Positions 7,939-49,182 of a stretch of DNA of 64,000 nt are shown piece by piece. The notes under the pieces were generated by a model, which was not told the origin of the DNA, ran no database searches, and saw only the letters and a program-made list of their open reading frames with translations. Source of the DNA: Candidatus Poribacteria bacterium (GTDB taxonomy: Bacteria > Poribacteria > WGA-4E > UBA9662). Numbering within the stretch: the first letter of the stretch is position 1; every line of letters begins with the position of its first letter. Made by a program: the position numbers and the translations under genes. Where the stretch lies: NCBI GenBank assembly GCA_046582655.1, contig JAYGDX010000089.1, forward strand, positions 20,129 through 84,128. Direction: 5' to 3'.

Positions 7939-10900
7939 CTAGTTTCCTGCTAATACCTTGAAGTTCCCAACATCCTCAAGAATTAGCAGGCCGAGACTAC
8001 TGGGAGGAACTGACTCAGTATTGGGCATTTGTTCGGCCCAATAAACCGATCGTTCATCTGACCGGTGAATGATGAAATTAAAACCCAGCTTATTGTTTCG
8101 TTTCATTTTTATGGGATCAAATCCTTTAAGTATAGGATAGAAAGGGAGGCGTGCCTCGATCATATAATAATTTTCCTGCTCAGTCACGGCTATTTGTAAT
8201 CCCTTAGCTTCATAATTCGGAACCAGTCTGGGTGCAGACTGTCCGAAATATGGCCGGCTACCATTAAAGCCGCCGCCCTTCGGACAAACCCAAAAAATGA
8301 ACCGATCCGAATCACCTTGGCTGTCGAGGTAATCAGGCCTGTGTTCATGTATCGGGTGGAGGTCAATATGGAGTTCAAGTGCATCAGAACCTTGATAGTA
8401 TCGAATTGGATCACCCACTTCAACTTGATTGTCATAAATTTGTGCTAGAAAGTATAGTGAGTCTTGATCCCATTGTAGCCACAATAGACCTTCATTTTTT
8501 GGAGTCACGATTGCCTTTTCGAGTGGCCATTGATCATCAAGACCATCAATGACGACGGGTTTATTGGTTCTTGCTGCCCAAGCAATCAAATTCGATCGGC
8601 ACATGGTTGTTATCTCAACATTTGTTTCACCAGTCTCAATTAAACGATCATCGTAAATCATGGCAATCATTTCCCCACCGGTCAATCCAAGCTCATTGGA
8701 TTCATTGATATCTCGTCCATATGCTGTTTGAATTGATCCACGAAATATCCGGGAATTTTTACTCTCTTCCAGAAGCACAATATGACTACCTGTTTCCATT
8801 TCATTGACCCGTACTCGCAAATTGGCTGATTCAGTTATAGAAGGGTCAACATTGAGATCCTGATCTTCCAAGCGGAAATAAAGTGTGGCGCCAATATTAA
8901 AATTCCGAAGCACTGAACCGTCTTTACGGGTGACAGTTAAATTGCCACGGATCCCTTTATTAGCGTAGGTAATATCCTCGACAGTTGTTGCGTTGATGGC
9001 ACTAAATTGAGGCGAATAGATGGCAGTTACTGCTTCTTCTCCTTGGACGTCAAGTGTGTCATCTGCGACTGCTGTTCTTCCATAGCGGGTTGGAACGACC
9101 CCCCAAAATACGCCGTTTTGGTTCGGCTTCTTTTCTAGTACTACATCAACCTGATCTTGTGTTCGGTTCCCATAAATAGTGATCGTCACTTCACTTGCGT
9201 CAACGACAGTACTGAGAAGAAGATCTTCAAGCCAGAAGTAAAGCAGATCTCCAGCCATAAAACTGCCGACTTCACTTTCATTGTCATCGGTAATCTTTAG
9301 AATGCCTTCATTACCGCTGAGCACAATAGCCTGCACCTTTGTCATTATTCCGGTTTCACCAGTTGCTGTGAGTGCGTCCAAATAGCTTATAGCAATCACT
9401 TCCTTATCAGTAAGCACCAATCCAATTGGATCGGTATTTGCCTGATTACTAGTTGTGAAGGTTCCTGCAAAGATACCGGAATTTTTGTTTGTTTCGTGCA
9501 GACTAATAACCTTCTCGTTTCCCAGTACATTTCCACGAACAGTTACTTTTGTTGACTCAATTTTTTCAGGAAAGAGATCTAAATCTTTATCAGTTAACCG
9601 AACCAACAGTTGTTCGCTATTATTGAAACTTCCGATACCAACAGAGAAATTGCTGATTAAACGAAGTGATTCGACAGTATAAATTTCAATATCACCGGTT
9701 TCTCCCACCGCTACCATCAGATCAACACGGATTTTCACCTGTGTTGCGCCGGTATCCTGTAAGGCATCAGTATACACAAAGGTGACAATGTCACCGCCTT
9801 GAACCTGCAGGACACCATCATTCACAATTGGGTTCGAGCCGTAATCAGTTTTTAGTCGACCGCGAAAGACACCTGCGTTTCCAAAAACCCCCCACATCGT
9901 TATCCTTATCCTATCACGAACCGTATTTTCGGTAAGATCGGTTTCGAATACCTGAGCCACTACGTTTGTTGTATCCAGATCTGCATCTTTGATTTCAAGG
10001 ATCAGCGTGTCACTCGCACGAAAACGGTTTATTGGAGAATTCAACATGGAATCTGGATTAAAACCTGATTCATTATAAACATGAATATTTCCAGTCGTCC
10101 CAACGTTTGTTTCACAGGTATCAACAATCTCGATATTTGTTTCACCAGTTGCCCTCAAACCATCAAGATAGACAGCCTGAATTTTTTCTGCCCCTTTTAC
10201 CTGAATTACTCCATCATCAATTTGCGCTTCGGTGCTATATAGCGTAGGAATAGAACCGGAAAAGTTCCCTTCGGCAGACGTCGAGAACAACACTAACTTC
10301 TCCCGATCGTTTAGCATATTACCACTAAGAGCAATCGCAATAACATCCTGAACGATGTCCTTATCACGAAGACGCAAGTGAAGCATGTTTCCAGCGTTGA
10401 AATTCTCCAGATCAGTCACCTGATTTGATTGTACAATCCCAATGATCCCATCATAGCCAGTCACGGCCTGAGCGACTCTCGAAATCAAGACTCCAGTCTC
10501 TCCGGAACCCCGAATTTGATCGACGTAACCAACCGTAACTTTTTCACCACCGACTACTTCGAGTTTATTGTTTTTAGTGTCAGCTTTTATTGCATATGTC
10601 GTTTCGACAGAGGCGATAAAAATACTGCTATCAGCATCGGTTTCAGTCAAAGCCAGTCTATATTGATCCTGTAATTGATCCCCTTCAATTATGACATCAA
10701 TGATTTCTTTTTGCGTTAAATCTTGATTGAGATCCGTATCTTGGAGTTCAATTTGTAGTGGAGTTCCTGCTTTGAAAAGCATGTCTCCGGGTATCAGTCT
10801 TCCGTTGATATTTAATTGTGCGGTATCGCCAATTTTTACCGTTTTTTGAGTTTGAATTGTTACATTGGCTTCACCTGTTTCTCGCAGTTGATCCACATAT

Positions 10901-13716
10901 ATGGCACTAATCGTCTGCATCCCAACTGCTTGAAGTATCATGTCATTTGGATCAGAAGTTTCACTGTAGACAGTTGTGAACTGTCCAGAATGATAGTTAT
11001 TTTCTGAATCAAACAAAAGTTTAAGTGATTCACTTTCATCAGTTCCGATTACTGCGAGCTCCACCTCGATCTCGCTACTTTTTGACACGTCGGCATCTTG
11101 AACAATAATATGAAGTTTCGAACCCAGTTCAATCATCTTAGCCGGTCGTTCGACATTATTAATGAAGATTTTACCGTCGTTCCCGCTGGTTGCAACCACT
11201 GTTGCTTCAACCAGCTTGTTTCGTTCGTCACGACTGAAATAGGGATCAATGTAAGTCAATAGAATTTCGTCATTTCCACGTACTTTTAATATATCCAACG
11301 AACTACCTTCTGCATCGGAAGTATCTCGCTCTTTTTCAAAGACTGTTACAACCCGAGTGGTGAACAGAGAACTATTTTCAGATCTATTACCCCTAACATC
11401 ATCAATTAGGGTAGTAAAATCAGTCTCATATAATGCAAGACGCATGGTTTGGCTAGTAGTGGTATTCGTTAATGCGGCTTGAATTGACTCCGACTCTGCG
11501 CGGTCGGTGTTACTATCTGCATCCCACACACATAAGCTAATTACATCACCCGCTGTAAAAGTGAATATGGGCATTAGCAACCGTTCATCCATAAACACAA
11601 CCCGACCGCTAATTTGGCTGACCAGTTCAATTACATTCCAATCACTGGGTGAAGCGTTTACATCACCAGATGCATAAGCAAAACTACGATCTCCCACAGA
11701 ATAGATGTAATTGAATCCAATCGATTTGCCAATGTCGGGAATATAATTCTGAAGAACCAGATCTTTTGGAAGACATACTTCTAGGTTATATCCCTTGTCT
11801 GTCGGCATGATTTTGGCGTCGATATATTTATGGAAGTTAATATTCTTAGGGATGGCATCCATGTGGTGGTGAATCTGGGTGGGATGAACGAAAAGTTGAT
11901 TTGTGTCCGATCCGTAGATTGTCAAAACGAAATGGTGGTCACTTGTTTTGTACATGCCAGTTGAAGCTTTTCTGGTAGAATCGCAAAAGATATGAATGAC
12001 ATCGCGATCCGTACTTTTAAGATCGGCATGTTTGATAGTAGCAGCAATATAAAAATTTTCTTCGTTCCATTGGGTGTAGAGCGTAACTAGATCTTGTATT
12101 GGTTTAGCATCTAAAAAACGGCCAAATTTTTTGGGATCCGGATCAATTTCACGTGCCATGTGTGGATACAAAAGGTGCCAATCTTCTATATAACCATCAA
12201 TTACGATCTCTTGATTCACCTTAATGGCACGACCAATCTGATCGTTTGACAATTGCTGAGACTTTACCATTTCAGAACCAGAGATTTTGATCGGTCGAGC
12301 TTCATATAGCCGTACTTCGGAAACGACTGCATTGGGACCGGCAATTCGATTAAAATGAAGTTCCATACGTCCGTCGGCATAGGCCTCAGAGGGAATGGGA
12401 ATAGTTCTTGTGCTGAAATCTCCTACAGGTATTTCAATTGCCGGATGAAGGATGTGCCCATCAACCAGAAGATCCTGAATACGTGTTCCACCATTCTCTT
12501 GCAGATATTCCACCTCTACCCAATAGAGCATCCAAGGTTTAAGTTGATTGTAGCCAACTTTTACAGCGTTATAATGGTAAGAGAAACTTCTGGCGGAATT
12601 AGGATTACCCGGATTAACTTTGTCAGGCTCTCCACCTTCAGCAAGAAAATATCGATTTTCGCCACTGGTATCCCGATCAAAGGCAAATCCCTGTATCAGG
12701 TGCGGAGCTAAGATGTTATTTGCCTCACCAAGCCGCTCATGTTGCATCTGGATAGCGTTGTAATCCCTAAGTTCCCTCTCTAAACTATTAGGACGATAGT
12801 CTTTAGTATAGACCTCAAATTCGCGAATCTCAGCATAATCACCATGCCAATCACCATTTTCAATTTGTAAACGAATATAACGTCCCTTCATCGGCATATC
12901 AAAGAGATGTTGATCTGCCACAGTCTCATCCGGTAATTCCTGAGATATATAGATATTCTGATAATCCTGTCCATTCGAACTGATAGCAATTGAGTAGGTC
13001 TTAACGTTGTCTCCGGGACCATCAGTAGTCAGCTGAAACCCGTATATCTTTTGAATTTCGCCGATATCTGCGGTAACATAAACAGGTGTTTCCGGCGGTT
13101 TGTATTTTATCTCAACTTCTTCCCCTCCGTCCTCGACTTCAGTTTCTATTCGTTGCGCCGCCGCCCATTTTGAATCTCTGAAAGGAATTAGATCCTTTAG
13201 CATAGACAACTCAACTTCATTATAATTGGAAGTCATCGATTGAATGGGTGTATGGGATTTGTATCTTAATCCAACTTGAAAATCATCGACTTTTAAATTC
13301 GGTCTATTATTAAACCAGTCATTGATCACAACCTGAATCCAACGCGCTTCAGTTGGAAACTGAAAACGCTGCAGCGCGAAATTGTATTCACGTGAACTAC
13401 CAACATAAGAAAAGGCACGTGTAAAACGTGATTTCGATCTGTCCTTTCCTACTAATATATCAAACTGTTTCGGTCCACTTTCATTTGGGTCTTCAAATCG
13501 AACCTTAACTTTGTCAACCAGGTAGACATAACCGAGATCATAGGTGGCAAAGGGAGGGTCGCTCCTGAGCAAATCTGCCGACCGGAGGGATTCATCATCC
13601 ATCTTGCGAACGGGCTTGATGAAGTATTGGTTTGTTCTCAGATTAACTTTATTTCGCGGATAAAACAGAAAACCTAGTAGGATTGCGATACTGCTGAGGA
13701 AAAGATACTTAGCCAC
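7939..13716 (-). CDS. Giant (1925 aa) repetitive cell-surface protein. It has an N-terminal signal anchor, discoidin-like and CBM9/DOMON-like domains, about 12 tandem ~110-aa beta-sandwich repeats, and a C-terminal CBM9-like domain.
   Basis: A single uninterrupted ORF. The N-terminus is MAKYLFLSSIAILLGFLFYP. Internal repeats share the motif ...NSGIF.G.I.T.YG....DDGVLQVQGGE.I.A.Y.D.L..TGET.V.I... at least 12 times. F5/8-C-like segments end in ...IREFEVY. CBM9-like segments include WHLLYPHM and LWLQWDQDSLYFLAQIYD. Confidence 0.85.
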   Translation of the reverse strand: MAKYLFLSSIAILLGFLFYPRNKVNLRTNQYFIKPVRKMDDESLRSADLLRSDPPFATYDLGYVYLVDKVKVRFEDPNESGPKQFDILVGKDRSKSRFTRAFSYVGSSREYNFALQRFQFPTEARWIQVVINDWFNNRPNLKVDDFQVGLRYKSHTPIQSMTSNYNEVELSMLKDLIPFRDSKWAAAQRIETEVEDGGEEVEIKYKPPETPVYVTADIGEIQKIYGFQLTTDGPGDNVKTYSIAISSNGQDYQNIYISQELPDETVADQHLFDMPMKGRYIRLQIENGDWHGDYAEIREFEVYTKDYRPNSLERELRDYNAIQMQHERLGEANNILAPHLIQGFAFDRDTSGENRYFLAEGGEPDKVNPGNPNSARSFSYHYNAVKVGYNQLKPWMLYWVEVEYLQENGGTRIQDLLVDGHILHPAIEIPVGDFSTRTIPIPSEAYADGRMELHFNRIAGPNAVVSEVRLYEARPIKISGSEMVKSQQLSNDQIGRAIKVNQEIVIDGYIEDWHLLYPHMAREIDPDPKKFGRFLDAKPIQDLVTLYTQWNEENFYIAATIKHADLKSTDRDVIHIFCDSTRKASTGMYKTSDHHFVLTIYGSDTNQLFVHPTQIHHHMDAIPKNINFHKYIDAKIMPTDKGYNLEVCLPKDLVLQNYIPDIGKSIGFNYIYSVGDRSFAYASGDVNASPSDWNVIELVSQISGRVVFMDERLLMPIFTFTAGDVISLCVWDADSNTDRAESESIQAALTNTTTSQTMRLALYETDFTTLIDDVRGNRSENSSLFTTRVVTVFEKERDTSDAEGSSLDILKVRGNDEILLTYIDPYFSRDERNKLVEATVVATSGNDGKIFINNVERPAKMIELGSKLHIIVQDADVSKSSEIEVELAVIGTDESESLKLLFDSENNYHSGQFTTVYSETSDPNDMILQAVGMQTISAIYVDQLRETGEANVTIQTQKTVKIGDTAQLNINGRLIPGDMLFKAGTPLQIELQDTDLNQDLTQKEIIDVIIEGDQLQDQYRLALTETDADSSIFIASVETTYAIKADTKNNKLEVVGGEKVTVGYVDQIRGSGETGVLISRVAQAVTGYDGIIGIVQSNQVTDLENFNAGNMLHLRLRDKDIVQDVIAIALSGNMLNDREKLVLFSTSAEGNFSGSIPTLYSTEAQIDDGVIQVKGAEKIQAVYLDGLRATGETNIEIVDTCETNVGTTGNIHVYNESGFNPDSMLNSPINRFRASDTLILEIKDADLDTTNVVAQVFETDLTENTVRDRIRITMWGVFGNAGVFRGRLKTDYGSNPIVNDGVLQVQGGDIVTFVYTDALQDTGATQVKIRVDLMVAVGETGDIEIYTVESLRLISNFSVGIGSFNNSEQLLVRLTDKDLDLFPEKIESTKVTVRGNVLGNEKVISLHETNKNSGIFAGTFTTSNQANTDPIGLVLTDKEVIAISYLDALTATGETGIMTKVQAIVLSGNEGILKITDDNESEVGSFMAGDLLYFWLEDLLLSTVVDASEVTITIYGNRTQDQVDVVLEKKPNQNGVFWGVVPTRYGRTAVADDTLDVQGEEAVTAIYSPQFSAINATTVEDITYANKGIRGNLTVTRKDGSVLRNFNIGATLYFRLEDQDLNVDPSITESANLRVRVNEMETGSHIVLLEESKNSRIFRGSIQTAYGRDINESNELGLTGGEMIAMIYDDRLIETGETNVEITTMCRSNLIAWAARTNKPVVIDGLDDQWPLEKAIVTPKNEGLLWLQWDQDSLYFLAQIYDNQVEVGDPIRYYQGSDALELHIDLHPIHEHRPDYLDSQGDSDRFIFWVCPKGGGFNGSRPYFGQSAPRLVPNYEAKGLQIAVTEQENYYMIEARLPFYPILKGFDPIKMKRNNKLGFNFIIHRSDERSVYWAEQMPNTESVPPSSLGLLILEDVGNFKVLAGN

Positions 13717-25746: not shown

Positions 25747-26835
25747 TTGGGAAATAAAGCGTCTTTTATTCAAAATCTAATTTTCTTTATAGTAGTTTTT
25801 CTCATTATCACCGTCAGTGGTTGTGAAGACGATGCGATAAACGAGGCCAAGCCCAAACTCGGCCAAATTGAAGGTTTGCTAAAACCAGCTGATGCTGCTA
25901 CTGAAATTCAACTGGTACAGGCAGGAAATATTGTGGCAACCACCTATCCGGACGAGAATGGAAAATACATTTTTTCTAATCTGGAATTTGGGGGCTATGA
26001 CATCATTGTTATTGCAGAAGGATACCATGTCGCATCTGAAGTCAACACCATCACACTTGATAAAGAAGTCGCTATCAAGAATTTCCAGCTTGTTCCACTG
26101 ATGGCTTCAATACGGGGAATCGTCATAGATTCTGAAGGTGCTTTTATAGAAAATGCATCAATTACGGTCTCTGCACTTGGTGATGAATTTACAACTCAAA
26201 CAGATCAATTTGGGGTTTTTTCTTTTAATCAATTACCATCAGAAGTTGGGTTGGTATTGGGAATCTTTGCAGATGGAAAGGTTGAACTTCAGGTTACAGT
26301 TGAGCCAATTGAAAAGGGAGGAACAAAAGATCTACAAATCAGTCTCAAAGAAATAGAACAGAAAATTGGTGTCGGTTCACAAGTAGGTGACTTGGCTCCC
26401 AATTTCTCATTATCTGATGTGGATGGTAAAATTGTTTCTTTGAAAGATTTCGCTAGCAAACAAACTGTTCTTCTTACCTTTCACCGTGGCAAGTTGTGAC
26501 CTGTATGCTTACCGCAGTTGGTACAACTGCTACAAAAAAATTATAATAAAATTTTAGATCTCAAAGCTGAAGTCATTGCTATTAGTCATGAATCTGTGGT
26601 CGAAAACAAGAAGATTCATCAGCAACATAAACTGAAATATCTTTCTCTATCGGATCCAACAGCAAAGACAATTCGGGACTACAAGGTGTTAGACTTTGGC
26701 AGATTTCCCAAGGTATCCTTTTTCATTGTTGATAAGCAGGGCATTATTCGTTGGCGTTCCACGCACAGTGGTGCCAATCCTGATGATTTGCCAAAGATTG
26801 ATGACTTGCTTAAGGCAATTCAGTTAGCCCAGTAA
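25747..26835 (+). CDS. Candidate selenoprotein: a lipoprotein with CarboxypepD_reg-like Ig-fold domains fused to an AhpC/TSA-redoxin domain carrying a U-x-x-C motif (in-frame TGA at 26497..26499)
   Basis: TTG start. Lipoprotein signal ...FLIITVSGC. The track ORF ends ...VLLTFHRGKL at the TGA, and the next track ORF (26518..26835) is in the same frame. Reading through gives FHRGKL-U-PVCLPQL, aligned to the FYRGxW-C-PxC redoxin motif with the TGA at the first Cys. A perfect 7-bp hairpin begins 14 nt after the TGA. Confidence 0.6.
26514..26530 (+). promoter_or_regulatory. Candidate bacterial SECIS-like hairpin (gcaguug-gua-caacugc) 14 nt downstream of the in-frame UGA
   Basis: Perfect 7-bp stem with a 3-nt loop, read directly from the sequence. 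Its position and size fit bacterial Sec-insertion elements. It has not been confirmed with a covariance model. Confidence 0.35.
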
Positions 26836-26867
26836 TTCAATTAGCGCTGTAGAGAGGATTTTTCACT

Positions 26868-27378
26868 GAGAGCGTTCATTCTTATCGCTTTATTTTGTTG
26901 CTCTTTCGGTTGTTCAAACGAGACTGACAACGCTGATAATCCCAGTAATCCGGCCCAAGACTCGAATTCTCCCCTGGCGCCGGATTTCACCTTGCTCAGC
27001 ACGGACTTTAAGCTGGTAAGTTTATCCGACTATCAGGGAAAAATCGTTCTTCTTGATTTTTGGGCTACATGGTGCAAATCATGTCAAGAAGAAATCCCAA
27101 TCTTTATTGACCTATATGACCAGTACCGCGATCAAGGATTTGAGATGGTTGGCATTTCGATTGATAGTGAACGTCTTAAGGTAGTCAATCCTTTTATTGA
27201 GAAACTAGGTGTAAACTATACAATTCTCCTGGGTGAACCAAATCTAATGGACAAATACAATATTATGGCGATTCCAACTGCAGTCCTGATCGACCAATCG
27301 GGTAATATCCGTAAAAGGTTTACTGGTGCGCAACTAGACAGACTTATTTACGAAAATGAATTAAAAAAACTGCTATGA
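26868..27378 (+). CDS. TlpA/ResA-like thiol:disulfide oxidoreductase lipoprotein (thioredoxin fold, WCxxC). Start codon uncertain.
   Basis: The track ORF 26992..27378 (TTG) contains VLLDFWATWCKSCQEEIP. The same frame is open upstream back to a TAG stop at 26854..26856, so the first sense codon is 26857. That upstream stretch encodes a lipoprotein signal (LRAFILIALFCCSFGCSNE) but no ATG, GTG or TTG. The only plausible initiator is CTG at about 26868. Confidence 0.65.
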
Positions 27379-27602
27379 AAAAATTGTCGTTGATTATCTT
27401 GGTGGGCGGAATTATCAGCATCGGAGGTTGTTCAACACACTTTACGCAAAACGAACAACTTCAACTTGACCTATCAGGTTCTGTAGCAGAAACACCAGCC
27501 ATTTTAGCCGAATTTGATTCTAGTGGAGGGGAGGAAAACTCTGGAGATATTACGAAGAAATCTGGCAGTAGTTGTGCCAACGGCGTTTGCACAATCTATT
27601 AA
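27375..27602 (+). CDS. Small predicted lipoprotein with a C-terminal CxxxxC pair
   Basis: MKKLSLIILVGGIISIGGCS (lipobox) ... SSCANGVCTIY. Its start overlaps the stop of the upstream gene by 4 nt. Confidence 0.4.
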   Translation: MKKLSLIILVGGIISIGGCSTHFTQNEQLQLDLSGSVAETPAILAEFDSSGGEENSGDITKKSGSSCANGVCTIY

Positions 27603-27615
27603 CAGATCTACAACC

Positions 27616-28746
27616 ATGTTTTCCTTCCTGTTTTTTTTCTTGCTTCTTTCCTTTCCATTTACTTCATTGGCACAATTGCCTTACTTTCAAACCTTCCAAC
27701 AGAATCTCAAAGTCAAATTCCAAACAGAAAGCACCTATGACAATCACATTGAATTGGGTTTGAGTATCGACCCATATACCAGCAACCTTTCGGGTCGTCG
27801 AAACCCACAAATACGAAGCCTTGTTAACCAAGCAAGAATACATCTGCAAGGCTCTTTTCCCGTCAGCCAATTCTTTGGTATAAAAACGCAGTTCAAAACA
27901 CAGTTGGAAGATTACATTGGAAGAGATGATAAACTTGATAATTTTAATGGTTTCAATAACATCTTCTCAACAGAATTTCTACTTCGATTAAGCAATCAGT
28001 TGCCGCATCTTCGTTTCCAGCACCAGATTCAGCGCCTTGACCGAGAAGATGACATTTACGATTACGTTGAAAACCAAATTGGTTTTCAGTTTGGTGAAGT
28101 GTTCAAATATCATCTTCGATTCAGGAACTTTGACGATAATCGAACTCGTCGAGAAGATTTTCTACTTGTAGGTTCTCGTTCACACTTGGGTATTGGGCGA
28201 TTACAATTTGGTATCCTGAAAAACATTTTAGGCCGGTTCGAATACCAAATTGAGCATCAACGTTATAAAAATAACTTGAACAACTTGGTGCTCGGAATTG
28301 CCAAAATCGATCCAGGAGATCTTCGTACCGATTGGAAACACCTTTTTACAACCCAACTAATACAGATTCCAACAAATCAAATCATCATTCAAGAAGATAT
28401 CAGCTTTTTTCAGAATAATTCCGATACATCATTTTACGATTTTGTAAGCCTTGAATTTGGAGGTACCGGTTTCCATCAAATGGCTGATAGACGTTGGATC
28501 AGACTGCGTTTGTTCGCACTCCAACTCAATTTTAAAGATCGAAAACTTATTTTTCAAAATCAATCGCAAAATAGAATAAATCAGCAAATTGGAATTGACT
28601 TCCTAATGCATTGGAAGCTGACTAATAAATTTTCTTTGCTTTTCGGATATCAACTGGTGAAAAATCGTATCAACGAGAAATCCGAAATTCTTGATTTTTT
28701 GAACTATCATCACAACATTATTTCAATCAAGTTGACCTATGACTAA
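27616..28746 (+). CDS. Hypothetical secreted, beta-rich protein, possibly an outer-membrane protein
   Basis: I chose the internal ATG at 27616, which gives the signal peptide MFSFLFFFLLLSFPFTSLAQ. The rest alternates hydrophobic and polar residues, rich in Y, F, Q, N and R. No family was recognised. Confidence 0.55.
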   Translation: MFSFLFFFLLLSFPFTSLAQLPYFQTFQQNLKVKFQTESTYDNHIELGLSIDPYTSNLSGRRNPQIRSLVNQARIHLQGSFPVSQFFGIKTQFKTQLEDYIGRDDKLDNFNGFNNIFSTEFLLRLSNQLPHLRFQHQIQRLDREDDIYDYVENQIGFQFGEVFKYHLRFRNFDDNRTRREDFLLVGSRSHLGIGRLQFGILKNILGRFEYQIEHQRYKNNLNNLVLGIAKIDPGDLRTDWKHLFTTQLIQIPTNQIIIQEDISFFQNNSDTSFYDFVSLEFGGTGFHQMADRRWIRLRLFALQLNFKDRKLIFQNQSQNRINQQIGIDFLMHWKLTNKFSLLFGYQLVKNRINEKSEILDFLNYHHNIISIKLTYD

Positions 28747-36472: not shown

Positions 36473-37681
36473 ATGCCTCTAATTGAACCTGACGGTGGGG
36501 AATTGATTAATCTCATCGTTCCAGAAAATCAAAGATCCGAAAAAAAATCGGAAGCTGAGTCATTGCCAAAAATGGTCATCAACGAATATCATTTGCAATG
36601 GATCCACATATTAAGTGAAGGGTGGGCAAATCCACTTACCGGATTTATGCGTGAGAATCAGTTTTTACAAACAATCCATTTTAATACCATACGGCAACCA
36701 GATGGCACGCTCGTTAATCAATCCGTTCCGATTACGCTCGATATCTCAGATCAGGATTGCGATCGTCTGCAAAACGCCGACGCAATTACACTGGCAAAAT
36801 CAAATGATGAGCCTGTGGCGATTTTACGAGATCCGGAGTTTTATACCAACCCGAAAGAAGAATACGCTGCCCGAACGATTGGATTTACGCATGTCGGCCA
36901 CCCAACGGTCGAACGAATTATGAAAATGAGTACGCAGTTGGTTGGTGGGGATCTCGAGGTCCTCAGACCAATCGTCTATAACGATGGGCTTGATCACTAT
37001 CGTCTGTCACCCGCTGAATTACGTGCAGAATTCGAAAAGCGTGGTGCAGACGCGGTTTATGCTTTTCAACTCCGAAATCCGGTTCATAATGGCCATGCTT
37101 TACTAATGAACGAAACAAAAGAGCAACTAAAAACACAAGGATACAAAAACCCTGTGCTTCTGTTGCATCCGCTTGGAGGATGGACGAAAGAAGACGATGT
37201 TCCTCTAGATGTCAGGATGCGTCAACATGGTGCAGTACTTGAAGATGGGATATTGGATCCGATCTCAACAGTTGTTTCCATTTTTCCCAGCCCCATGCTT
37301 TACGGTGGGCCGACAGAAGTTCAGTGGCACGCCAAAGCCCGAATCAATGCCGGGGTGAGTCACTACATCGTTGGGCGTGATCCCGCGGGGATAACGCATC
37401 CGGAGACGGGTGAACCTGTCTACGACCCGTTTCACGGCATGAAAGTCCTGCAGATGGCTATCGGTCTGGAAAAACTGGAAATCATCGAGTTCAAATTTGC
37501 CGCTTATGACAAGGTTTCCGGCAAGATGGGATTCTTTGACCCTAGCCGAGCTGACGATTTTCTGATGATTTCTGGTTCACAAATGCGGGAATACGCACGA
37601 AACAAAGAGACACCTCCAGATGGATTCATGGGTAAAAAGGCTTGGCAGGTTATTGCAGAATACTATGCCTCAATCAATTAG
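36473..37681 (+). CDS. sat: Sulfate adenylyltransferase (ATP sulfurylase, homo-oligomeric Sat type)
   Basis: N-terminal PUA-like region with ...WANPLTGFM. Catalytic motifs AFQLRNPVHNGHALL and GRDPAG. About 400 aa, consistent with Sat. Confidence 0.8.
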   Translation: MPLIEPDGGELINLIVPENQRSEKKSEAESLPKMVINEYHLQWIHILSEGWANPLTGFMRENQFLQTIHFNTIRQPDGTLVNQSVPITLDISDQDCDRLQNADAITLAKSNDEPVAILRDPEFYTNPKEEYAARTIGFTHVGHPTVERIMKMSTQLVGGDLEVLRPIVYNDGLDHYRLSPAELRAEFEKRGADAVYAFQLRNPVHNGHALLMNETKEQLKTQGYKNPVLLLHPLGGWTKEDDVPLDVRMRQHGAVLEDGILDPISTVVSIFPSPMLYGGPTEVQWHAKARINAGVSHYIVGRDPAGITHPETGEPVYDPFHGMKVLQMAIGLEKLEIIEFKFAAYDKVSGKMGFFDPSRADDFLMISGSQMREYARNKETPPDGFMGKKAWQVIAEYYASIN

Positions 37682-44124: not shown

Positions 44125-47100
44125 TTAGGCATTCCTAACGATAACAGTTTTCGTTTCAACCATAATTAGGTATACATTACTCACCACGAGAATGCCCTTG
44201 TTATCTCGACCATCCCACCAAAAAACATGATTTCCGCTAAAGAGATTTTTCCCTTCAAAGCTGCGTCGCAAGCGGCCAGCAATATTGTAAATCCCAATTG
44301 TTACGTCGCCGGGTTCATTTAATCGGAAAGAGATTGCTGTTTCTTCGCCTCGATTAGGCGAAAACAGCCGTGGTTGTGAGTTCAATCCGGCTATGGAATT
44401 TTCAGCGTATTCATCAGTGGAATTTGCCAATTACAAGACTGCATATTGACCGAGTTTTGTGATAGTTGTCGATATGGTCCGCTCTTGGTGATTCAGTGTT
44501 CCACCGATTAATCTCCAGGAACTTGAAAGTGATCCATCATCACGGTTATTCTATCTACAAACACCAATTTTCTCGTTTTTACCGTCGACCATAAATTCAA
44601 TTGCTGCCAGCTTGCGTGGGTTAAGTTTGAGATCCCATGGTGCAAACTCATAACCATGAGTCGTAGGATTAATAGTTACGATGGTTTGTTCGGTCAAGCA
44701 GTGCGGTGGAAAAATAATCCTTGCTCGACCATCTAAGCTCTCGACACGCTCAATACGCTGATTATCGACATAATTGTTAAAGGACACCTGAATTTGGTGA
44801 TTACTGGTTTGATCTGCCCGATCTTCTACAGTTAAACGAAGTGTATATTCACCAATGAGATTTGGGGAATTCCATTCTGCCAGGGTTCCCTCTACCACTG
44901 CTTCAAGAAATCCTATTTTTGAGATCGAATACCAAAGAACGGGTGACTTACCGGTTCCATACTCAATGATGTACCTTTTAAAATTAGGGTCGTATGCAGA
45001 TCCAGTAATGCTGATATTTCGTGGAACCTGTTGCCCGGAGCTCGGAGAGGTAATACTCGCTTTTGGTGGTGTGCCATCAACAATGATCCTAACCTGATCT
45101 TGTGAAAATTGGCCAGATTTGTCGAATACTGTAAGCCGAATTTCGTACGTCCCGTCATTCAGTGAGGACAATTTCCAATTGGCCAAGAGCCCTCTTCTTT
45201 TAGTTCATTCGGTCGAGTAACGGCGATCGGGTGCCACTGACTTGTTGAGCCTATAGAGCGAAAGTCAAGCATGTACCGATCGAAGTTCTCATCTGCAGCG
45301 ATTCCGTAAATTTGTACCGAACGGTTAGCATATGTATTAGACTCTGGCCTAGTCAAGGTCGCAATAGCTCTCTTATCATCGAGAACTATTTCAATAGGCG
45401 GTATTGTCTGAGTAAAATTACCTGCTTGATCAACAGCAATTACATGTATCTGGTATCGACCAGCTATAAGCTGAACGGCATTCCAATACCCTAACTTACC
45501 GGAGACAATCGGCACGGAAGATCTTGAGATCTCAATCCACGCGTCATCAGGACCTAAGTGTTCGAGAACATAGTTGTCGAAATTTGGGTCATTTATTGTT
45601 CCGATGATTGGGATGATATCAGTTCGTAAAACATCACCTGTTTTAGGAGAATCAATAACAACCGTCGGAGCAGCATTATCCAATGGAATTTCAATTTCGC
45701 TTTTAGATCTATATTCGTTATGATCGATCGCGGTCAATCGTACAAGATACTTACCATCATCGATTTCAGAGGTATTCCAGCGGAAGATCTCTTCGTTGTT
45801 GAATTGGAGTTGAGACTGGTAAATCAACTGCCAATCTATGTTTCCTATCGCCGGACGAAATTCAACGGAAGCACTCTTCAACCCTTTTTCCTGATTTGAA
45901 CGCATTTTCGCTGTACCATAGATTGCGATCTCACCACGAACAGGTCGATCTATATCGCGCAGTTGTACAATCGGAAGTGCTGAATCATTTTTTAACCTAA
46001 TTGAGATTGCCTGCGATATTCCTATATTTCCAGCCTGATCTATAGCTTTGACACGTTAAAGAAAAATAACCATCAATCTGTGAGGTATCCAATTCAAACG
46101 CTGGGCAACAGCCAACGAGCTGTCAATTGAAAATTCCCCAACTGTTTGCTATTCTTTTCTAATACGCCCATATTCTAATACATAATGTGTAAGATGTTTG
46201 TCCTCTAACGAAACCTCAACTTCAACGCTACCAGATATGACAGCTCCTTGCAAAGGTCGAATTATTTCCACCTCGGGTTCGGTGTTATCAACTTCAATGG
46301 CCAAGATCATTTCACTTTTGTGTTGGCGGTCATAGGAACCATTTATTTGGTCAAATGAAACAAGTTGTATCTGGTATCGACCATCATTGACGGCAAAGGT
46401 ATTCCATCTATACAGTAAATTATTCTCAACGCTATCTTTTCTGCCAAAAACAATATCAGTATCATGCATGAATGCGGATCTCATAATGGGAAAAATCTGT
46501 TGAGTCATTTGATGTTCCCTTGATATCGAAAACACCGTTAATCACTTGATGCCGACTAGGTTGTGATATTTGTGAAATCGGAATTAATGAATCAACGACA
46601 AAATCAGATTTAGCTCCAATCTGATCGATGTTTCCTTCCTGATCTATGGCTTGGACAACAAACCAATGTTGTCCTTCCGCAAGCCTCACTAAAAAGCTCG
46701 ATTGTCAAAACCGTTGTCGTCCGTCAACTTAAAATTACTGTTGTTAATTTGAAACTGGTAGCGAAAATTTGAACTACTGGCATCATCCACCACCTTCAAA
46801 TTTAAAGCTTACACTTGTTTCACCAACAATCTCGCCATTCATTGGTCCACTGATAATGCGTGTAGTTGGCGATATGGCCTCCTGCTTGAATCGGCTCAAA
46901 TTCCCATCATCAAAGCTGCCGAACCAAAAACTCCCATCCAGTGATGCTGTAATGGCAGAGATGTTATTGCTATTAAGCCCGTCACTAACTGTCAGTGTTC
47001 GAAAAAATCGTCCATTTTGAAAGATACTTACGCCATCGTTTGTACCGACCCAAACCCGATTTTCCTCGTCAACATATAATGTCTGAACATGATTATCAAT

Positions 47101-48089
47101 TAAGCCGTTGGCTATGGTGAGTCGGAGCTTTGGTGTTTTTTGCCTTGATTCCAAAATATGAATTCCATTGTCTGAACCAACCCAGATGTCTCCATCCCTT
47201 GTATTAATTATGGTTGAAATTCGTCCCATTTTTTGACCAGATATTTCCTCTAATTCTCCTGTGTCCTGATTATAAATCCAGAGATGACTGGCTACAGTTT
47301 CATTACCGGCCGTCGCCAAGTAAATCCAACCTGAAGGATCAGCAAATAGTCGGGTGATCGTACGGTTAATCGCCTTGAAAATGTTAGCCTGCTGGTGAAA
47401 AATTGTGCCATCGTATCGAATCAGGTCAGGCAAAAAACCAATTGGATCATCCGGTAGTAGAACTCCAGTGCTGATCCAGATGTTGCCATCACCATCCTGC
47501 CCAATAGTCTGAGGCTATTGGGCAACCCATCGTTCAAGCCGAACGTGAGATGATTCGTACCGTTAAAATGACTTAAGAAGTTGGGGGTTGTATTATGTAT
47601 CAACCAGAGATCAGAATCCCCATCCTCGTAGATGATATGTGTTTCCTTGTTTAAAGCTATTTGCCATGATTGCCCATCAAATCGGTTGACACCGAATGAT
47701 GTCCCAACCCATATCTCACCATTTTTGCGTTGAATCATAGTATGTATTCTGTTAGCCAGTAGTCCGTTTTCTGTTGTGTAGTGATCAATCCAGTCGATCT
47801 GACTTAGATCTAGAACACCTTGGTGAATCCCTGTATCTGTCGCAATCCAGATCTCATTTTTATCTACGAAAAGGAGATAAGTAGCTGTATCCGAAACGGA
47901 AACTGTCGACCAGAATCCGTTAAAAAAATTTAGGCTATGGTCTGTGACAGTCCAAATCCTCCCAAATTGATCTTCAGCAACTAAGCGAATGTTGTTACTG
48001 CTTATATTGTTGCCAGCCTGTGTAAAGTTTCGGAAATTGAAATTTTGTTGTGAATTGATGGACTGGCACACAATAAGCAATAGAAACAC
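44125..48089 (-). pseudogene. Large surface protein with a two-component-regulator-propeller (Reg_prop) beta-propeller, Ig/fibronectin-like domains and a C-terminal FlgD-Ig-like domain, fragmented into at least six ORFs
   Basis: The track shows consecutive minus-strand ORFs at 47421..48089, 46783..47433, 46462..46689, 46149..46535, 45159..45905, 44551..45186 and 44125..44430. They overlap or abut in different frames. Propeller repeats include IWVGTSFGVNRFDGQSW, DIWVGSDNGIHILE and RVWVGTNDGVSIFQNGRFF. The C-terminal fragment ends with the FlgD-Ig-type motif ...IGIYNIAGRLRRSF...GNHVFWWDGRDNKGILVVSNVYLI. Stops are scattered through the 45906..46148 and 44431..44550 linkers. Confidence 0.55.
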
Positions 48090-48276
48090 AAATGAAATGG
48101 GTATATATACATTTCAAACTTTTCCGCTTCTGATCGTTAGGATAAGTTTGCTTCATTTGATGAAATCTTGTACCATTTGTCAGTGGAGGTTTATAAACAT
48201 GATACCCAAAATTTTAGTGAGTATATTTGTGGCTTTTATAATAGCCACTCTAGACATCAGAACTGAGGAAGATAGA

Positions 48277-49182
48277 ATGAAAAATTTGAAAATTGGGATG
48301 GTTGCACCAGACTTCACTCTGATGGGAGATGACGGACAAAAGCATAAAATATCTCAGCACCTCGGCAAGAAAAACGTTGTTCTGGCTTTTTATCCTAAAG
48401 ATTTTACTGGTGGCTGAACGGCTGAACTTCGATCGCTCCGTGACGAGTTAAGTAGAATTGAGGCTACCGGGACCGTTGTTTACGGTATCAGCACAGATGA
48501 TCAGGAATCACATAAAAAGTTTAGCCAAGCTGAAGAGTTTGGGTTCTCGCTTTTGGCTGATGTAGATCATGCTGTTAGTCAACAGTATAGCGGATTGCGA
48601 GGTCAGTCTCTATCCAACCGTGTTACTTTTGTCATCGATCATGCTGGTTATATTCGTGTTATTGACAAAGAAGTTGATGTGCAAAATCACGGTTCCGATT
48701 TGGTGAAGATAATTGAGGGTACAACCCAGTACCAGATAAAAGTTGGACAACCCGCACCAGATTTTATTGCACACGATCAAGACGGCAAAACGCATCAAAT
48801 TAGTAATCTCAAAGGCAAGAAGAACGTAATCCTTGCGTTTTATCCGGCAGACATGACACCTGGCTGAACGATGGAAGTCTGTTCACTCCGGGATGAGTTG
48901 AATAATTTTGAAACTCTTGAAGTTGCCGTTTATGGTGTTAGTGTACAAAATCAAAAATCACATAAGAAATTTGCTGATAAACACAGTCTCGGATTTCCTC
49001 TGCTGGTTGATACAGGTCGTAACATCAGTTTGCTTTACCATGCAATATCAAAACCGGAAGGCAATTGCAAGCGAATCACGATTTTGATTGGGAAAAACGG
49101 TGACATTGTTCAAATTGATGACAAGGTTAGTGTTCGAAAACATGGCAGAGACCTAATTGATTTTATCAAATCTCTAAATTAA
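48277..49182 (+). CDS. Candidate double-selenocysteine tandem peroxiredoxin (two fused PrxQ/BCP-like domains; in-frame TGA at 48415..48417 and 48865..48867)
   Basis: ATG at 48277 with GAGGAAG 6 nt upstream. The read-through translation is [82 protein letters not shown]...[82 protein letters not shown]...DFIKSLN. All three track ORFs (ending at 48417 and 48867; the next ones starting at 48553 and 48871) share one frame. Both TGAs sit at the peroxidatic-Cys column of FYPxDFTPG-C-TxE. Confidence 0.65.

What the first reader, a model, noticed from the sequence alone, without database searches (positions are those of the whole stretch)
25747..26835. Lipoprotein redoxin with a U-x-x-C motif and a perfect hairpin 14 nt downstream of the in-frame TGA
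Seen in sequence: the ORF encoding a lipoprotein (signal ...LIITVSGC) with CarboxypepD_reg-like domains ends ...LLTFHRGKL at TGA (26497..26499). The same frame continues with PVCLPQLVQLLQKNYNKILDLKAEVIAISHESV... through a complete thioredoxin-fold redoxin domain. Against the AhpC/TSA-redoxin motif FYRGxW-C-PxC, the TGA falls on the first Cys, giving U-P-V-C. UxxC is the classic selenoprotein counterpart of CxxC. Immediately downstream (26514..26530) the sequence gcagttg-gta-caactgc forms a perfect 7-bp stem with a 3-nt loop. That position and size fit a bacterial SECIS. A second redox lipoprotein (TlpA-like WCKSC) and a small Cys-containing lipoprotein follow, which suggests a periplasmic or surface thiol-redox module with a selenoprotein component.
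Basis: partly seen in the sequence, partly recalled or inferred. Interest (0 to 1): 0.7.

Follow-up and report, generated by a model that had tools for sequence, protein, structure and literature searches.

The report
Selenocysteine redoxin lipoprotein gene, Poribacteria
The "stop" codon inside this gene almost certainly encodes selenocysteine, so the gene makes one membrane-anchored redox protein of a selenoprotein type already well known from marine metagenomes, which makes it a correct call but an ordinary find.

Summary
Confirmed. The ORF 25747..26499 ends at TGA 26497-26499, and the same frame stays open for 111 more codons to TAA 26833-26835. With Cys placed at the TGA, one AhpC/TSA redoxin domain spans it (Pfam E=1e-25).

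The TGA sits in the same column in 28 related loci from independent assemblies, forming six clades that go down to about 45% identity. The downstream frame is always 111 codons and is under purifying selection. The nearest full-domain homologues carry Cys there (RGDW-C-PxC).

The hairpin 26514-26530 keeps its position in all clades. Three of its seven pairs show compensatory changes, and it meets all four published bacterial SECIS criteria.

TGA is an ordinary stop for 10 of 35 other long ORFs in the window, so the genetic code is not reassigned.

A second, unreported selenoprotein gene lies at 48199..49182: a tandem BCP peroxiredoxin with two in-frame TGAs at the peroxidatic-Cys positions.

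The related genomes are pelagic Candidatus Poribacteria MAGs.

The gene heads a conserved four-gene envelope module: Sec-redoxin lipoprotein, TlpA-like lipoprotein, a small Cys-pair lipoprotein and a porin-like barrel.

No selA/B/C/D genes were found in the DNA available.

Verdict: a genuine new member of the known "Prx-like (PF00578, UxxC)" selenoprotein class.

The parts
25747..26835 (+). Complete selenoprotein gene: 362 codons including Sec251. TTG start, TAA stop at 26833-26835. It encodes a lipoprotein with two beta-sandwich domains and a C-terminal Prx-like redoxin.
   Evidence: full-length homologues
25747..25824 (+). Lipoprotein signal peptide MGNKASFIQNLIFFIVVFLIITVSG|C. The lipobox Cys26 codon is at 25822-25824.
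   Evidence: Read directly from the sequence. Lipoboxes are kept in clades A-E: VSGC, LGC/FGC, FSC, LSC.
25864..26346 (+). Two CarboxypepD_reg / transthyretin-like beta-sandwich domains. The second covers aa 121-200; the boundaries of the first are approximate.
   Evidence: Pfam PF13620 E=1.9e-16, 2 stretches. AlphaFold pLDDT is about 85-95 over this part.
26380..26811 (+). AhpC/TSA-Redoxin (thioredoxin-fold) domain, aa 212-355, interrupted by the TGA.
   Evidence: Pfam PF00578 E=1.1e-25 and PF08534 E=3.7e-17. Best PDB matches are the Bcp peroxiredoxins 3drn and 2ywn, E about 1e-11.
26497..26508 (+). U-P-V-C redox motif. TGA 26497-26499 is Sec251 and TGC 26506-26508 is Cys254.
   Evidence: TGA is conserved in 28 related loci. 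The column aligns with the first Cys of RGDW-C-PxC homologues, and with Thr of TxxC in Bcp-type peroxiredoxins.
26514..26530 (+). Candidate bacterial SECIS hairpin GCAGUUG-GUA-CAACUGC. The loop starts 21 nt after the UGA.
   Evidence: Folding gives -8.8 kcal/mol in a 60-nt context. 94% of cells are paired over 15 distinct sequences, and 3 of 7 pairs show compensatory change. All four bSECIS criteria from PMC13188914 are met.
26866..27378 (+). TlpA/ResA-like thiol:disulfide oxidoreductase lipoprotein (WCKSC). It probably starts at CTG 26866, behind the SD sequence AGAGAGGA; the signal reads MRAFILIALFCCSFG|C.
   Evidence: Pfam and NCBIfam hits. The SD plus CTG is conserved in clades A and B, clade C uses ATG, and clade D has an ATGA overlap with the stop of the Sec gene.
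27375..27602 (+). Small lipoprotein (75 aa) with the conserved C-terminal motif C-A-N-G-[VI]-C-T-I-Y. No known family.
27613..28746 (+). Secreted protein (377 aa) predicted to form a 16-strand beta-barrel of the outer-membrane porin type. It is the fourth gene of the conserved module.
   Evidence: AlphaFold pTM 0.69. Foldseek matches OprD/Occ and OmpC/F porins at E about 1e-7, TM about 0.5. Synteny.
48199..49182 (+). Second selenoprotein gene in the window, outside the finding. It has an N-terminal hydrophobic segment and two tandem BCP/PrxQ peroxiredoxin domains. TGA replaces the peroxidatic Cys in both (48415-48417 and 48865-48867), giving T-x-x-U motifs.
   Evidence: NCBIfam NF006960 scores 181 bits against a cutoff of 140, with 2 stretches. 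Homologues carry 'W' at both sites or are truncated there, and Cys forms read [11 protein letters not shown]. Candidate hairpins have their loop 21 nt after each UGA.

Best explanation
The TGA at 26497-26499 is a selenocysteine codon. The ORF called as 250 aa and the 111 codons after it form one gene, 25747..26835.

Inferred mechanism: the hairpin 26514-26530 (7 bp, GUA loop starting 21 nt after the UGA) acts as the bacterial SECIS. It would bind SelB-GTP-Sec-tRNA(Sec) on the translating ribosome, so that Sec is inserted instead of the chain being released.

The product is a 362-residue lipoprotein. It has a signal peptide with a lipobox, two transthyretin-like beta-sandwich spacer domains, and a C-terminal thioredoxin-fold domain of the AhpC/TSA (Prx-like) type with the active site U251-P-V-C254.

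Sec occupies the N-terminal position of the CxxC-type motif, which is the attacking position. The peroxiredoxin Thr and Arg are both missing. The domain is therefore most likely a selenol/thiol:disulfide oxidoreductase of the cell envelope, cycling through a Se-S bond with Cys254. That functional step is inferred, with about 0.55 confidence; a peroxidase role is the main alternative.

It probably works with the co-transcribed TlpA-like WCxxC lipoprotein, the small C-x4-C lipoprotein and the porin-like barrel that follow it in every clade.

The organism is a pelagic member of Candidatus Poribacteria.
For: Shown:
- One AhpC/TSA domain spans the TGA.
- The TGA lies in the same column, followed by exactly 111 open codons, in 28 related loci. 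These fall into six clades down to 39-47% identity and come from independent assemblies.
- Two database proteins were called full-length only because the gene caller used code 4 ('W'); their DNA has TGA.
- The downstream frame is under purifying selection as strong as the upstream one. The residues between the TGA and any possible restart codon (P-V-C-x-P/V-Q-L) are conserved.
- In clade D the next gene's ATG overlaps the stop of the downstream part (ATGA), which implies that ribosomes reach that stop.
- The closest full-domain homologues (37-42% identity) have Cys at the column: RGDW-C-P[FYNT]-C.
- The inner 5 bp of the hairpin pair in all 15 distinct sequences and the sixth in 14 of 15. G-C/A-U, C-G/U-A and G-C/G-U/A-U exchanges occur at three pairs. 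Slid controls pair at only 13-65%.
- A divergent homologue with a different peptide (VQLGELL) keeps a 6-bp stem at the same offset, with loop AGGUG.
- All four bSECIS criteria quoted in PMC13188914 are met: loop of 3-9 nt, stem of 4-16 bp, G in the first two loop positions, 16-37 nt spacing, and MFE at or below -7.5 kcal/mol.
- The chance frequency of such a hairpin after a TGA trinucleotide is 0.65%.
- TGA ends 10 of 35 other long ORFs, and TGG is used 179 times, so there is no code 4/25.
- A second gene in the window has two TGAs exactly at peroxidatic-Cys positions.

From the literature:
- Prx-like PF00578 UxxC selenoproteins are a recognised and abundant marine family (PMC13188914; PMC2398784).
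- Sec-containing hydrogenases are reported from Poribacteria MAGs (PMC13582414).
- SelA, SelB and SelD COGs are counted in Ca. Poribacteria WGA-3G (PMC5649159 Table S4).
Against: - No selA, selB, selC (tRNA-Sec) or selD was found in the 64-kb window or in any fetched locus. The rest of the source genome could not be searched.
- The hairpin is thermodynamically unremarkable: z = -1.3 against shuffles. Cys-homologue mRNAs fold with similar energy.
- In clade F the conserved hairpin is not the MFE structure. In clade D the outermost pair is U-U.
- The Q-L-x-Q-L peptide partly forces a palindrome at the DNA level. The +3 slid control reaches a similar covariation score, though only 65% pairing.
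- No Rfam SECIS family matches.
- The number of independent compensatory events is small, roughly 4-5.
- There is no expression or protein-level evidence.
- The AlphaFold model of the redoxin part is poor, with pLDDT about 50-60.
Confidence: 0.87

Rival explanations
1. The UGA is a true stop. The cell makes a 250-aa lipoprotein (beta-sandwich domains plus a stump of the redoxin domain). The downstream 111 codons are either a separately initiated small protein or a decaying gene remnant.
For: Most gene callers annotated it this way: 250-263-aa products plus a separate 105-aa ORF starting at TTG 26518. Some termination at UGA is expected to compete with Sec insertion in any selenoprotein gene.
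Against: - A split would cut a single thioredoxin fold after its first strands and remove the active site.
- The candidate restart TTG is CTG in clades B-E.
- Codons between the TGA and that site are invariant at the protein level.
- The 111-codon frame has been kept intact, with dN well below dS, across six clades. A remnant would not be.
- Every homologue has TGA at this column, never TAA or TAG.
Confidence: 0.04
2. The UGA is read through as a standard amino acid. This could be Trp or Gly by a reassigned code, Cys via a tRNA-Cys(UCA)/SelB route, or near-cognate read-through. The protein would then be full-length but would contain no selenium.
For: Gene callers translated two homologues with code 4. 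SelB-dependent Cys insertion at UGA by a non-canonical tRNA-Cys is cited in PMC13582414. No Sec machinery was seen directly.
Against: - TGA terminates 10 of 35 long ORFs in the window, and Trp is encoded 179 times by TGG, so there is no global reassignment.
- Trp or Gly at the first position of a CxxC-type motif would destroy the redox site. Homologues have Cys there.
- A conserved, covarying hairpin at the SECIS position is not needed for simple read-through.
- The second gene puts TGA exactly at two peroxidatic-Cys positions. That is the signature of Sec.
Confidence: 0.05
3. This rival concerns function only. The gene is a genuine selenoprotein, but it works as a peroxidase of the GPx or Prx type (Sec oxidised by peroxide, resolved by Cys254) rather than as a thiol:disulfide oxidoreductase.
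For: The best solved-structure and NCBIfam neighbours include BCP/PrxQ thiol peroxidases. U-x-x-[C/T] with Sec in the first position is also the GPx arrangement (established knowledge). The same genome invests Sec in a tandem BCP.
Against: - The Prx catalytic Thr is replaced by Sec itself, and the catalytic Arg column holds Val or Ile.
- The closest Cys homologues are the RGDW-CPxC (PRX_like2 / SelL-related) type, not TxxC peroxiredoxins.
- The gene is always paired with a TlpA/ResA-type reductase and a Cys-pair lipoprotein. That points to protein-thiol chemistry.
Confidence: 0.3

Closest known systems
Prx-like thiol:disulfide oxidoreductase selenoproteins. These are 'Prx-like 1' (pfam00578, UxxC) in the GOS selenoproteome (PMC2398784), and are listed as predicted with high confidence in PMC13188914.
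   Same: The domain is PF00578. Sec takes the first position of a CxxC-type motif (UxxC). Cys homologues are abundant. The setting is marine metagenomic. The SECIS-like hairpin lies just downstream of the UGA.
   Different: This protein carries a lipoprotein signal and two CarboxypepD_reg beta-sandwich domains in front of the redoxin. Its motif context is RGK[LFI]-U-PVC rather than RGxW-C-PxC. It sits in a conserved four-gene envelope cluster, and its lineage is Poribacteria. I could not compare it directly with the family's reference sequence (WP_010940744.1).
SelL-related redox proteins (NCBIfam NF040769) / PRX_like2 (cd02970) CxxC proteins
   Same: This is the best NCBIfam hit. Both share the F-x-R-G-x-x-[C/U]-P-x-C motif, and in both the second Cys corresponds to the Prx peroxidatic Cys.
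   Different: The score is 49 bits against a curated cutoff of 120, so this protein is not a member of that curated family. Identity to the nearest CxxC forms is only 37-42%.
BCP/PrxQ peroxiredoxins, including Sec-containing Prx (TxxU, PrxU)
   Same: Same fold, and the best solved-structure matches (3drn, 2ywn). The second gene in the window (48199..49182) does belong to this class.
   Different: In the target gene Sec replaces the Thr of TxxC, not the peroxidatic Cys, and the catalytic Arg is absent.
E. coli fdhF-type bacterial SECIS / the bSECISearch consensus
   Same: The hairpin lies inside the coding region directly 3' of the UGA. It has a small apical loop beginning G-U, and the spacing is 21 nt (allowed range 16-37).
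   Different: The structure is much shorter (17 nt). It has no bulged U and no conserved lower stem; a lower helix appears only in clades C-E, and in different registers. SelB binding has not been tested.
TlpA/ResA/DsbE periplasmic reductant systems
   Same: The neighbouring gene is a lipoprotein with a WCxxC redoxin domain. Its best NCBIfam hit is ResA at 113 bits, and TlpA scores 66 bits.
   Different: Both scores are below the curated cutoffs. No CcdA/DsbD, cytochrome-maturation or Sco/Cox genes lie nearby, so the physiological substrate is unknown.

Membership tests
Bacterial selenoprotein gene (SelB/SECIS-dependent UGA recoding) | In-frame UGA conserved among orthologues, with a conserved coding frame downstream | tested here: met
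   All 28 related loci in 6 clades have TGA in the same column followed by 111 open codons. pN is far below pS downstream.
Bacterial selenoprotein gene (SelB/SECIS-dependent UGA recoding) | The Sec column aligns with a redox-active Cys in homologues (Sec/Cys pair) | tested here: met
   P0015, P0016, P0019, P0021, P0031, P0047 and P0150 read RG[DT][WF]-C-Px-C at the column.
Bacterial selenoprotein gene (SelB/SECIS-dependent UGA recoding) | [quoted passage not shown] | tested here: met
   The loop is GUA, the stem is 7 bp, the spacing is 21 nt and the MFE is -8.8 kcal/mol (criteria from PMC13188914). No Rfam model matched. Clade D and F variants are weaker when folded alone (-6.4 and -5.5 kcal/mol).
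Bacterial selenoprotein gene (SelB/SECIS-dependent UGA recoding) | selA, selB, selC (tRNA-Sec) and selD present in the same genome | not testable with these tools
Indirect support comes from the second Sec gene in the window, from SelA/B/D COGs in Ca. Poribacteria WGA-3G, and from Sec hydrogenases in Poribacteria MAGs.
Bacterial selenoprotein gene (SelB/SECIS-dependent UGA recoding) | UGA is otherwise a stop codon in the organism (no global reassignment) | tested here: met
   10 of 35 long ORFs end in TGA, and there are 179 TGG Trp codons.
Prx-like thiol:disulfide oxidoreductase selenoprotein (PF00578, UxxC) | AhpC/TSA (PF00578) domain above the Pfam gathering score | tested here: met
   90.4 bits against a cutoff of 26, E=1.1e-25.
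Prx-like thiol:disulfide oxidoreductase selenoprotein (PF00578, UxxC) | A U-x-x-C motif in place of CxxC, rather than the T-x-x-U of true Sec-peroxiredoxins | tested here: met
   The motif is U251-P-V-C254. Sec aligns with the Thr of TxxC, and Cys254 aligns with the peroxidatic Cys.
SelL-related redox protein (NCBIfam NF040769) | Score at or above the curated cutoff (120 bits) | tested here: not met
   49 bits, E=5e-13. The protein is related to this family but not a member.
Peroxiredoxin BCP/PrxQ | A PxxxTxxC active site with the conserved catalytic Arg | tested here: not met
   The Thr position is occupied by Sec. The Arg column holds Val (window) or Ile (clade F). NF006960 scores 46 bits against a cutoff of 140.
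Bacterial lipoprotein | A signal peptide ending in a lipobox [LVI][ASTVI][GAS]C | tested here: met
   The lipobox is ...LIITVSG|C. Equivalent lipoboxes occur in clades A-E. Judged by eye; no dedicated predictor was available.

The most novel reading that the evidence does not exclude
The four conserved genes would form a dedicated, selenium-dependent redox system of the outer envelope of pelagic Poribacteria, and not just a chance neighbourhood. The genes are the Sec-redoxin lipoprotein held away from the membrane on beta-sandwich stalks, the TlpA-like lipoprotein, the small lipoprotein ending in C-A-N-G-V-C-T-I-Y, and the porin-like 16-strand barrel. One possibility is a relay that passes electrons to, or repairs, a surface-exposed Cys-loop lipoprotein, or that detoxifies oxidants at the cell surface. 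A system of this composition has not been described.
Probability: 0.2. Interest if true: 0.6.

Novelty: new member of a known kind. Interest (0 to 1): 0.36.

Why it matters
The practical consequence is an annotation fix. Across public databases this gene is split into a 250-aa "CarboxypepD_reg lipoprotein" and a 105-aa "AhpC fragment", or it is mistranslated with Trp at the active site. The tandem BCP gene at 48.2-49.2 kb is missed or mistranslated in the same way.

Reading both genes correctly shows that free-living marine Poribacteria use selenocysteine at three or more codons within 64 kb, and that they place at least one selenoprotein in the cell envelope as a lipoprotein.

It also supplies a compact natural SECIS (17 nt, loop starting 21 nt after the UGA), with covariation data. 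This could be useful for SECIS models in little-studied phyla.

It does not change what is known about how Sec is decoded, or about which protein classes use it.

Tried and rejected
- **Rfam.** The whole window at gathering scores gave nothing. The region 26440-26620 at E<=10 gave three chance-level hits and no SECIS family.
- **tRNA-Sec.** ARAGORN found no tRNA in the window or in 18 loci.
- **Sec machinery.** Pfam scans of 39 of the 45 ORFs of at least 150 aa, plus the module genes, found no SelA, SelB or SelD.
- **Thermodynamics.** Hairpin z-scores are only -1.1 to -1.7, and Cys-homologue mRNAs fold equally well. Energy alone does not discriminate, so I relied on position and covariation.
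- **Lower SECIS stem.** A lower helix appears in clades C-E in different registers and is absent in A and B. I rejected it as a conserved feature.
- **Global TGA reassignment (code 4/25).** Rejected.
- **Structure of the selenoprotein.** The redoxin half was modelled poorly because only two full-length rows were available and both have W at the active site. It was not used for fold search.
- **Sequence hand-in limits.** I used the P0010 domain (W at the site) instead.
- **Gene 4 as an obligatory partner.** Its homologues in sponge Poribacteria stand alone next to thiG, so the link holds only within the pelagic clades.
- **Odd N-termini.** L004 has a GST_N fusion and L010 has an unrelated N-terminus. 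Sister contigs have the normal lipobox, so I treated both as probable assembly chimeras or rare variants.
- **Chance pattern hits.** L011 and L017 from the metagenome pattern scan are chance matches and were discarded.
- **Orthologues of the second selenoprotein gene.** None were found in the fetched loci.
Full report
**1. The observation**

The sequence is as described.
- An ORF starts at TTG 25747. It encodes a signal peptide ending in the lipobox VSG|C, then about 185 residues that Pfam assigns to two CarboxypepD_reg-like beta-sandwich domains, and then the start of a redoxin domain. It stops at TGA 26497-26499, after ...LLTFHRGKL.
- The same frame runs on for 111 codons (PVCLPQLVQLLQKNYNK...) to TAA 26833-26835.
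- With Cys written at the TGA, one uninterrupted AhpC-TSA domain (E=1.1e-25, aa 213-336) and one Redoxin domain (aa 212-355) cover residue 251.
- The hairpin GCAGTTG-GTA-CAACTGC lies at 26514-26530, 14 nt after the TGA.
- On the + strand of the window, only 9 of 1393 TGA trinucleotides (0.65%) are followed at SECIS distance by a perfect 7-bp hairpin with G in the first two loop positions.

**2. Is the TGA real and conserved?**

A database search found 11 relatives. Nine are 250-357-aa products that end exactly at ...RGKL. Two, P0001 (98% identical) and P0010 (45%), are full-length but have 'W' at the site. Their DNA has TGA there; the gene caller had used code 4 on those short contigs.

I then gathered more relatives from several sources:
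- contig look-ups;
- a scan of one genome per species;
- one metagenome scan with a degenerate pattern around the site.

Together these gave 28 homologous loci from ENA, JGI, NCBI, Tara and Logan assemblies. They fall into six clades (A-F), down to 39-47% protein identity. Every one has TGA in the same column, followed by an open frame of exactly 111 codons. This excludes a sequencing error or a strain-specific pseudogene.

**3. Is the downstream frame translated?**

- Between clades, synonymous sites in the 111 codons are near saturation (pS 0.74-0.95), while pN is 0.18-0.30. This is the same as, or lower than, in the 45 codons before the TGA.
- Within clades dN/dS is 0.10-0.34.
- P252, V253, C254, Q257 and L258, which lie between the TGA and any possible restart codon, are invariant; P256 changes only in clade F.
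- The candidate restart TTG 26518 is CTG in most clades.
- In clade D the start codon of the next gene overlaps the stop of this frame (ATGA), a translational-coupling arrangement.

**4. Sec/Cys pair and fold**

An exhaustive HMMER search of 1.84 billion representatives with the domain found two kinds of hit: fragments of this same family split at the TGA, and full domains at 42% identity or less.
- The nearest full domains read F[YFV]RG[DT][WF]-C-P-x-C. Their first Cys aligns with the TGA.
- More distant hits are BCP/PrxQ peroxiredoxins (TPVC). There the Thr aligns with the TGA and the peroxidatic Cys aligns with C254.
- The same register is seen against the solved Bcp structures 3drn and 2ywn.
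- The peroxiredoxin catalytic Arg column holds Val or Ile in this family.

So the site is U-P-V-C in a CxxC-type redoxin, not a peroxiredoxin site. The best NCBIfam model is 'SelL-related redox protein' (NF040769), but at 49 bits against a cutoff of 120.

**5. The hairpin**

Fifteen distinct sequences of the region were aligned without gaps.
- The inner five pairs are standard in all 15 sequences and the sixth in 14 of 15.
- Pair 27-37 is G-C in 9 and A-U in 6.
- Pair 28-36 is C-G in 13 and U-A in 2.
- The closing pair is G-C, G-U or A-U, except in clade D, where it is U-U.
- Overall 94% of cells pair, against 13-65% when the partner is slid.
- All the changes are synonymous, so they are invisible to selection on the protein.
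- In clade F the peptide itself differs (VQLGELL). A 6-bp stem GCAGUU/AACUGC with loop AGGUG is still kept at the same offset.

The published bacterial SECIS criteria are all met (PMC13188914):

| Criterion | Required | Observed |
|---|---|---|
| Apical loop | 3-9 nt | GUA (3 nt) |
| Upper stem | 4-16 bp | 7 bp |
| G in the first two loop positions | yes, usually followed by G or U | G then U |
| Spacing from UGA to loop | 16-37 nt | 21 nt |
| MFE | at or below -7.5 kcal/mol | -8.8 kcal/mol |

Caveats:
- The energy z-score is only about -1.3.
- Cys-homologue mRNAs fold with similar energy, though not into this hairpin.
- The Q-L-x-Q-L peptide partly imposes a palindrome, and the +3 slid control reaches a similar covariation score.
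- Only about 4-5 compensatory events are independent.
- No Rfam SECIS model matches.

**6. Not a reassigned code; a second selenoprotein gene**

TGA ends 10 of 35 other long ORFs in the window, and Trp is encoded by TGG 179 times.

I scanned the window for other TGA-interrupted frames and found a gene at 48199..49182 that no ORF list showed, because two TGAs cut it into three pieces. It has an SD sequence plus ATG, an N-terminal hydrophobic segment, and two tandem BCP/PrxQ domains. These read FYPKDFTGG-[TGA][11 protein letters not shown] and FYPADMTPG-[TGA][11 protein letters not shown], so Sec sits at both peroxidatic-Cys positions.
- With Cys at both sites it passes NCBIfam's cutoff for thiol peroxidase BCP (181 bits against 140, two stretches).
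- Homologues at 51-60% identity carry 'W' at both sites. By analogy with P0001 and P0010 these are code-4 calls of TGA. This is inferred, not checked.
- Other homologues end at ...FYPKDFTSG, and Armatimonadota homologues have Cys.
- Each UGA is followed by a small hairpin whose loop (CGUGAC and CGGGAU) starts 21 nt downstream, the same spacing as in the target. These hairpins are weak and were not tested by covariation.

The organism therefore appears to decode UGA as Sec at three or more positions within 64 kb.

**7. Organism and Sec machinery**

The two genome hits are MAGs named Candidatus Poribacteria bacterium: SP142 (81% identity) and SAT10 (44%). Homologues of the fourth module gene are also named Poribacteria.

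No selA/B/C/D was found in the window or in any locus. I could not search the rest of the genome.

Literature support exists only at phylum level:
- Sec-type group 4 hydrogenases come from Poribacteria MAGs (PMC13582414).
- In Table S4 of PMC5649159 the column for Ca. Poribacteria WGA-3G shows SelA 2, SelB 1 and SelD 1 (my column count).

**8. Surroundings and likely function**

The order Sec-redoxin gene, TlpA/ResA-like lipoprotein (WC[KQ][SP]C), small lipoprotein ending S-x-C-A-N-G-[VI]-C-T-I-Y, and a protein of about 380 aa is kept in clades A-D. Clade E keeps the redoxin, TlpA-like and barrel genes. The flanking genes change between clades.
- The TlpA-like gene in the window most likely starts at CTG 26866, behind AGAGAGGA. 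That is why callers truncate it.
- The fourth protein has a signal peptide and is predicted to be a 16-strand barrel (pTM 0.69). It matches OprD/Occ and OmpC/F porins at fold level.
- Its homologues in sponge Poribacteria are not next to redoxins.
- All clades keep the lipobox.

Inference: this is an extracytoplasmic thiol/selenol redox module. Sec251 would be the attacking nucleophile and Cys254 the resolving residue. The beta-sandwich domains would act as a stalk. The TlpA-like protein is the likely redox partner, and the Cys-loop lipoprotein is a candidate substrate. A peroxidase role is the main functional alternative.

**9. Comparison with what is known; novelty**

'Prx-like thiol:disulfide oxidoreductase' (PF00578; UxxC/UxxU) is in the current table of prokaryotic selenoproteins as 'predicted with high confidence' (PMC13188914). 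'Prx-like 1 (pfam00578, UxxC)' was among the most abundant selenoprotein families in the Global Ocean Sampling data, with 225 Sec sequences and 2,740 Cys homologues. Fusions of such domains to other domains were noted there as well (PMC2398784).

The present gene is therefore a new member of a known kind. What is particular to it:
- the lipoprotein plus CarboxypepD_reg architecture;
- the RGK[LFI]-U-PVC context, with no Cys-containing orthologue found above about 42% identity;
- the conserved four-gene envelope cluster;
- the Poribacteria lineage.

**10. Verdict**

Confidence that this is a genuine Sec codon with a functional SECIS-type hairpin is about 0.87. Confidence in the thiol:disulfide oxidoreductase role specifically is about 0.55. 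Interest is moderate to low, because the class is well known; the main value lies in correcting the annotation and in the extra selenoprotein gene found at 48.2-49.2 kb.

Noticed in passing
window 48199..49182 (+); TGAs at 48415-48417 and 48865-48867: An unannotated second selenoprotein gene. It is a membrane-anchored or secreted tandem BCP/PrxQ peroxiredoxin with Sec (TGA) at the peroxidatic-Cys position of both domains (T-x-x-U twice). The two TGAs split it into three short ORFs. Candidate hairpins have their loop 21 nt after each UGA.
   Followed up: partly
window 26845..26992 (+): The TlpA-like lipoprotein gene has no ATG, GTG or TTG before residue 43. A CTG at 26866, 7 nt behind the SD sequence AGAGAGGA, gives a proper lipoprotein signal (MRAFILIALFCCSFG|C). 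The SD plus CTG is conserved in clades A and B, while clade C uses ATG. Public gene calls truncate the protein to 77-128 aa.
   Followed up: yes
window 27375..27602 (+): A small lipoprotein (75 aa) with a conserved C-terminal motif S-x-C-A-N-G-[VI]-C-T-I-Y. It has no Pfam or NCBIfam family and is kept next to the redoxins in clades A-D. It could be the substrate of the redoxins, or a metal or redox carrier.
   Followed up: partly
window 27613..28746 (+); L030-L032: A Poribacteria-wide protein family with no Pfam model (437 database homologues). It is predicted to be a 16-strand porin-like outer-membrane barrel. In sponge-associated Poribacteria it sits next to thiG rather than next to redoxins.
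   Followed up: partly
P0001, P0010, P0282-P0290 (database proteins); L001, L002: On short metagenome contigs, gene callers switched to genetic code 4 and wrote Trp at Sec codons. This produced full-length 'W' versions of selenoproteins. It is a systematic artefact that can be used to find Sec genes. In L002 a spurious N-terminal extension through another TGA was also created.
   Followed up: yes
L004 1..1593; L010 1..1062: In two short contigs the lipoprotein signal of the Sec-redoxin is replaced, by a GST_N domain in L004 and by an unrelated Cys-rich region in L010. Sister contigs of the same clade have the normal lipobox. These are probably assembly chimeras, though rare fusions are possible.
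   Followed up: partly
window 44551..48089 (-): A run of adjacent, partly overlapping ORFs of 211-248 aa with PKD/Big_7, Glucodextran_B and Reg_prop (two-component regulator propeller) matches. It looks like one large surface or sensor protein broken by frameshifts or stops.
   Followed up: no
window 7939..13716 (-): A 1925-aa ORF, the largest in the window. It was not scanned against any family library.
   Followed up: no
window 36473..37681 (+): ATP sulfurylase (PUA_2 plus ATP-sulfurylase domains) about 10 kb downstream of the module. Enzymes of this type can also activate selenate. No link to the selenoprotein genes was tested.
   Followed up: no
L001, L004, L015 and relatives, +5..+48 nt after the TGA: In clades C-E an extra lower helix (GGUUU.../...AAACC) can enclose the conserved hairpin, but in different registers. 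It is absent in clades A and B, where an A-rich tract follows the hairpin.
   Followed up: partly
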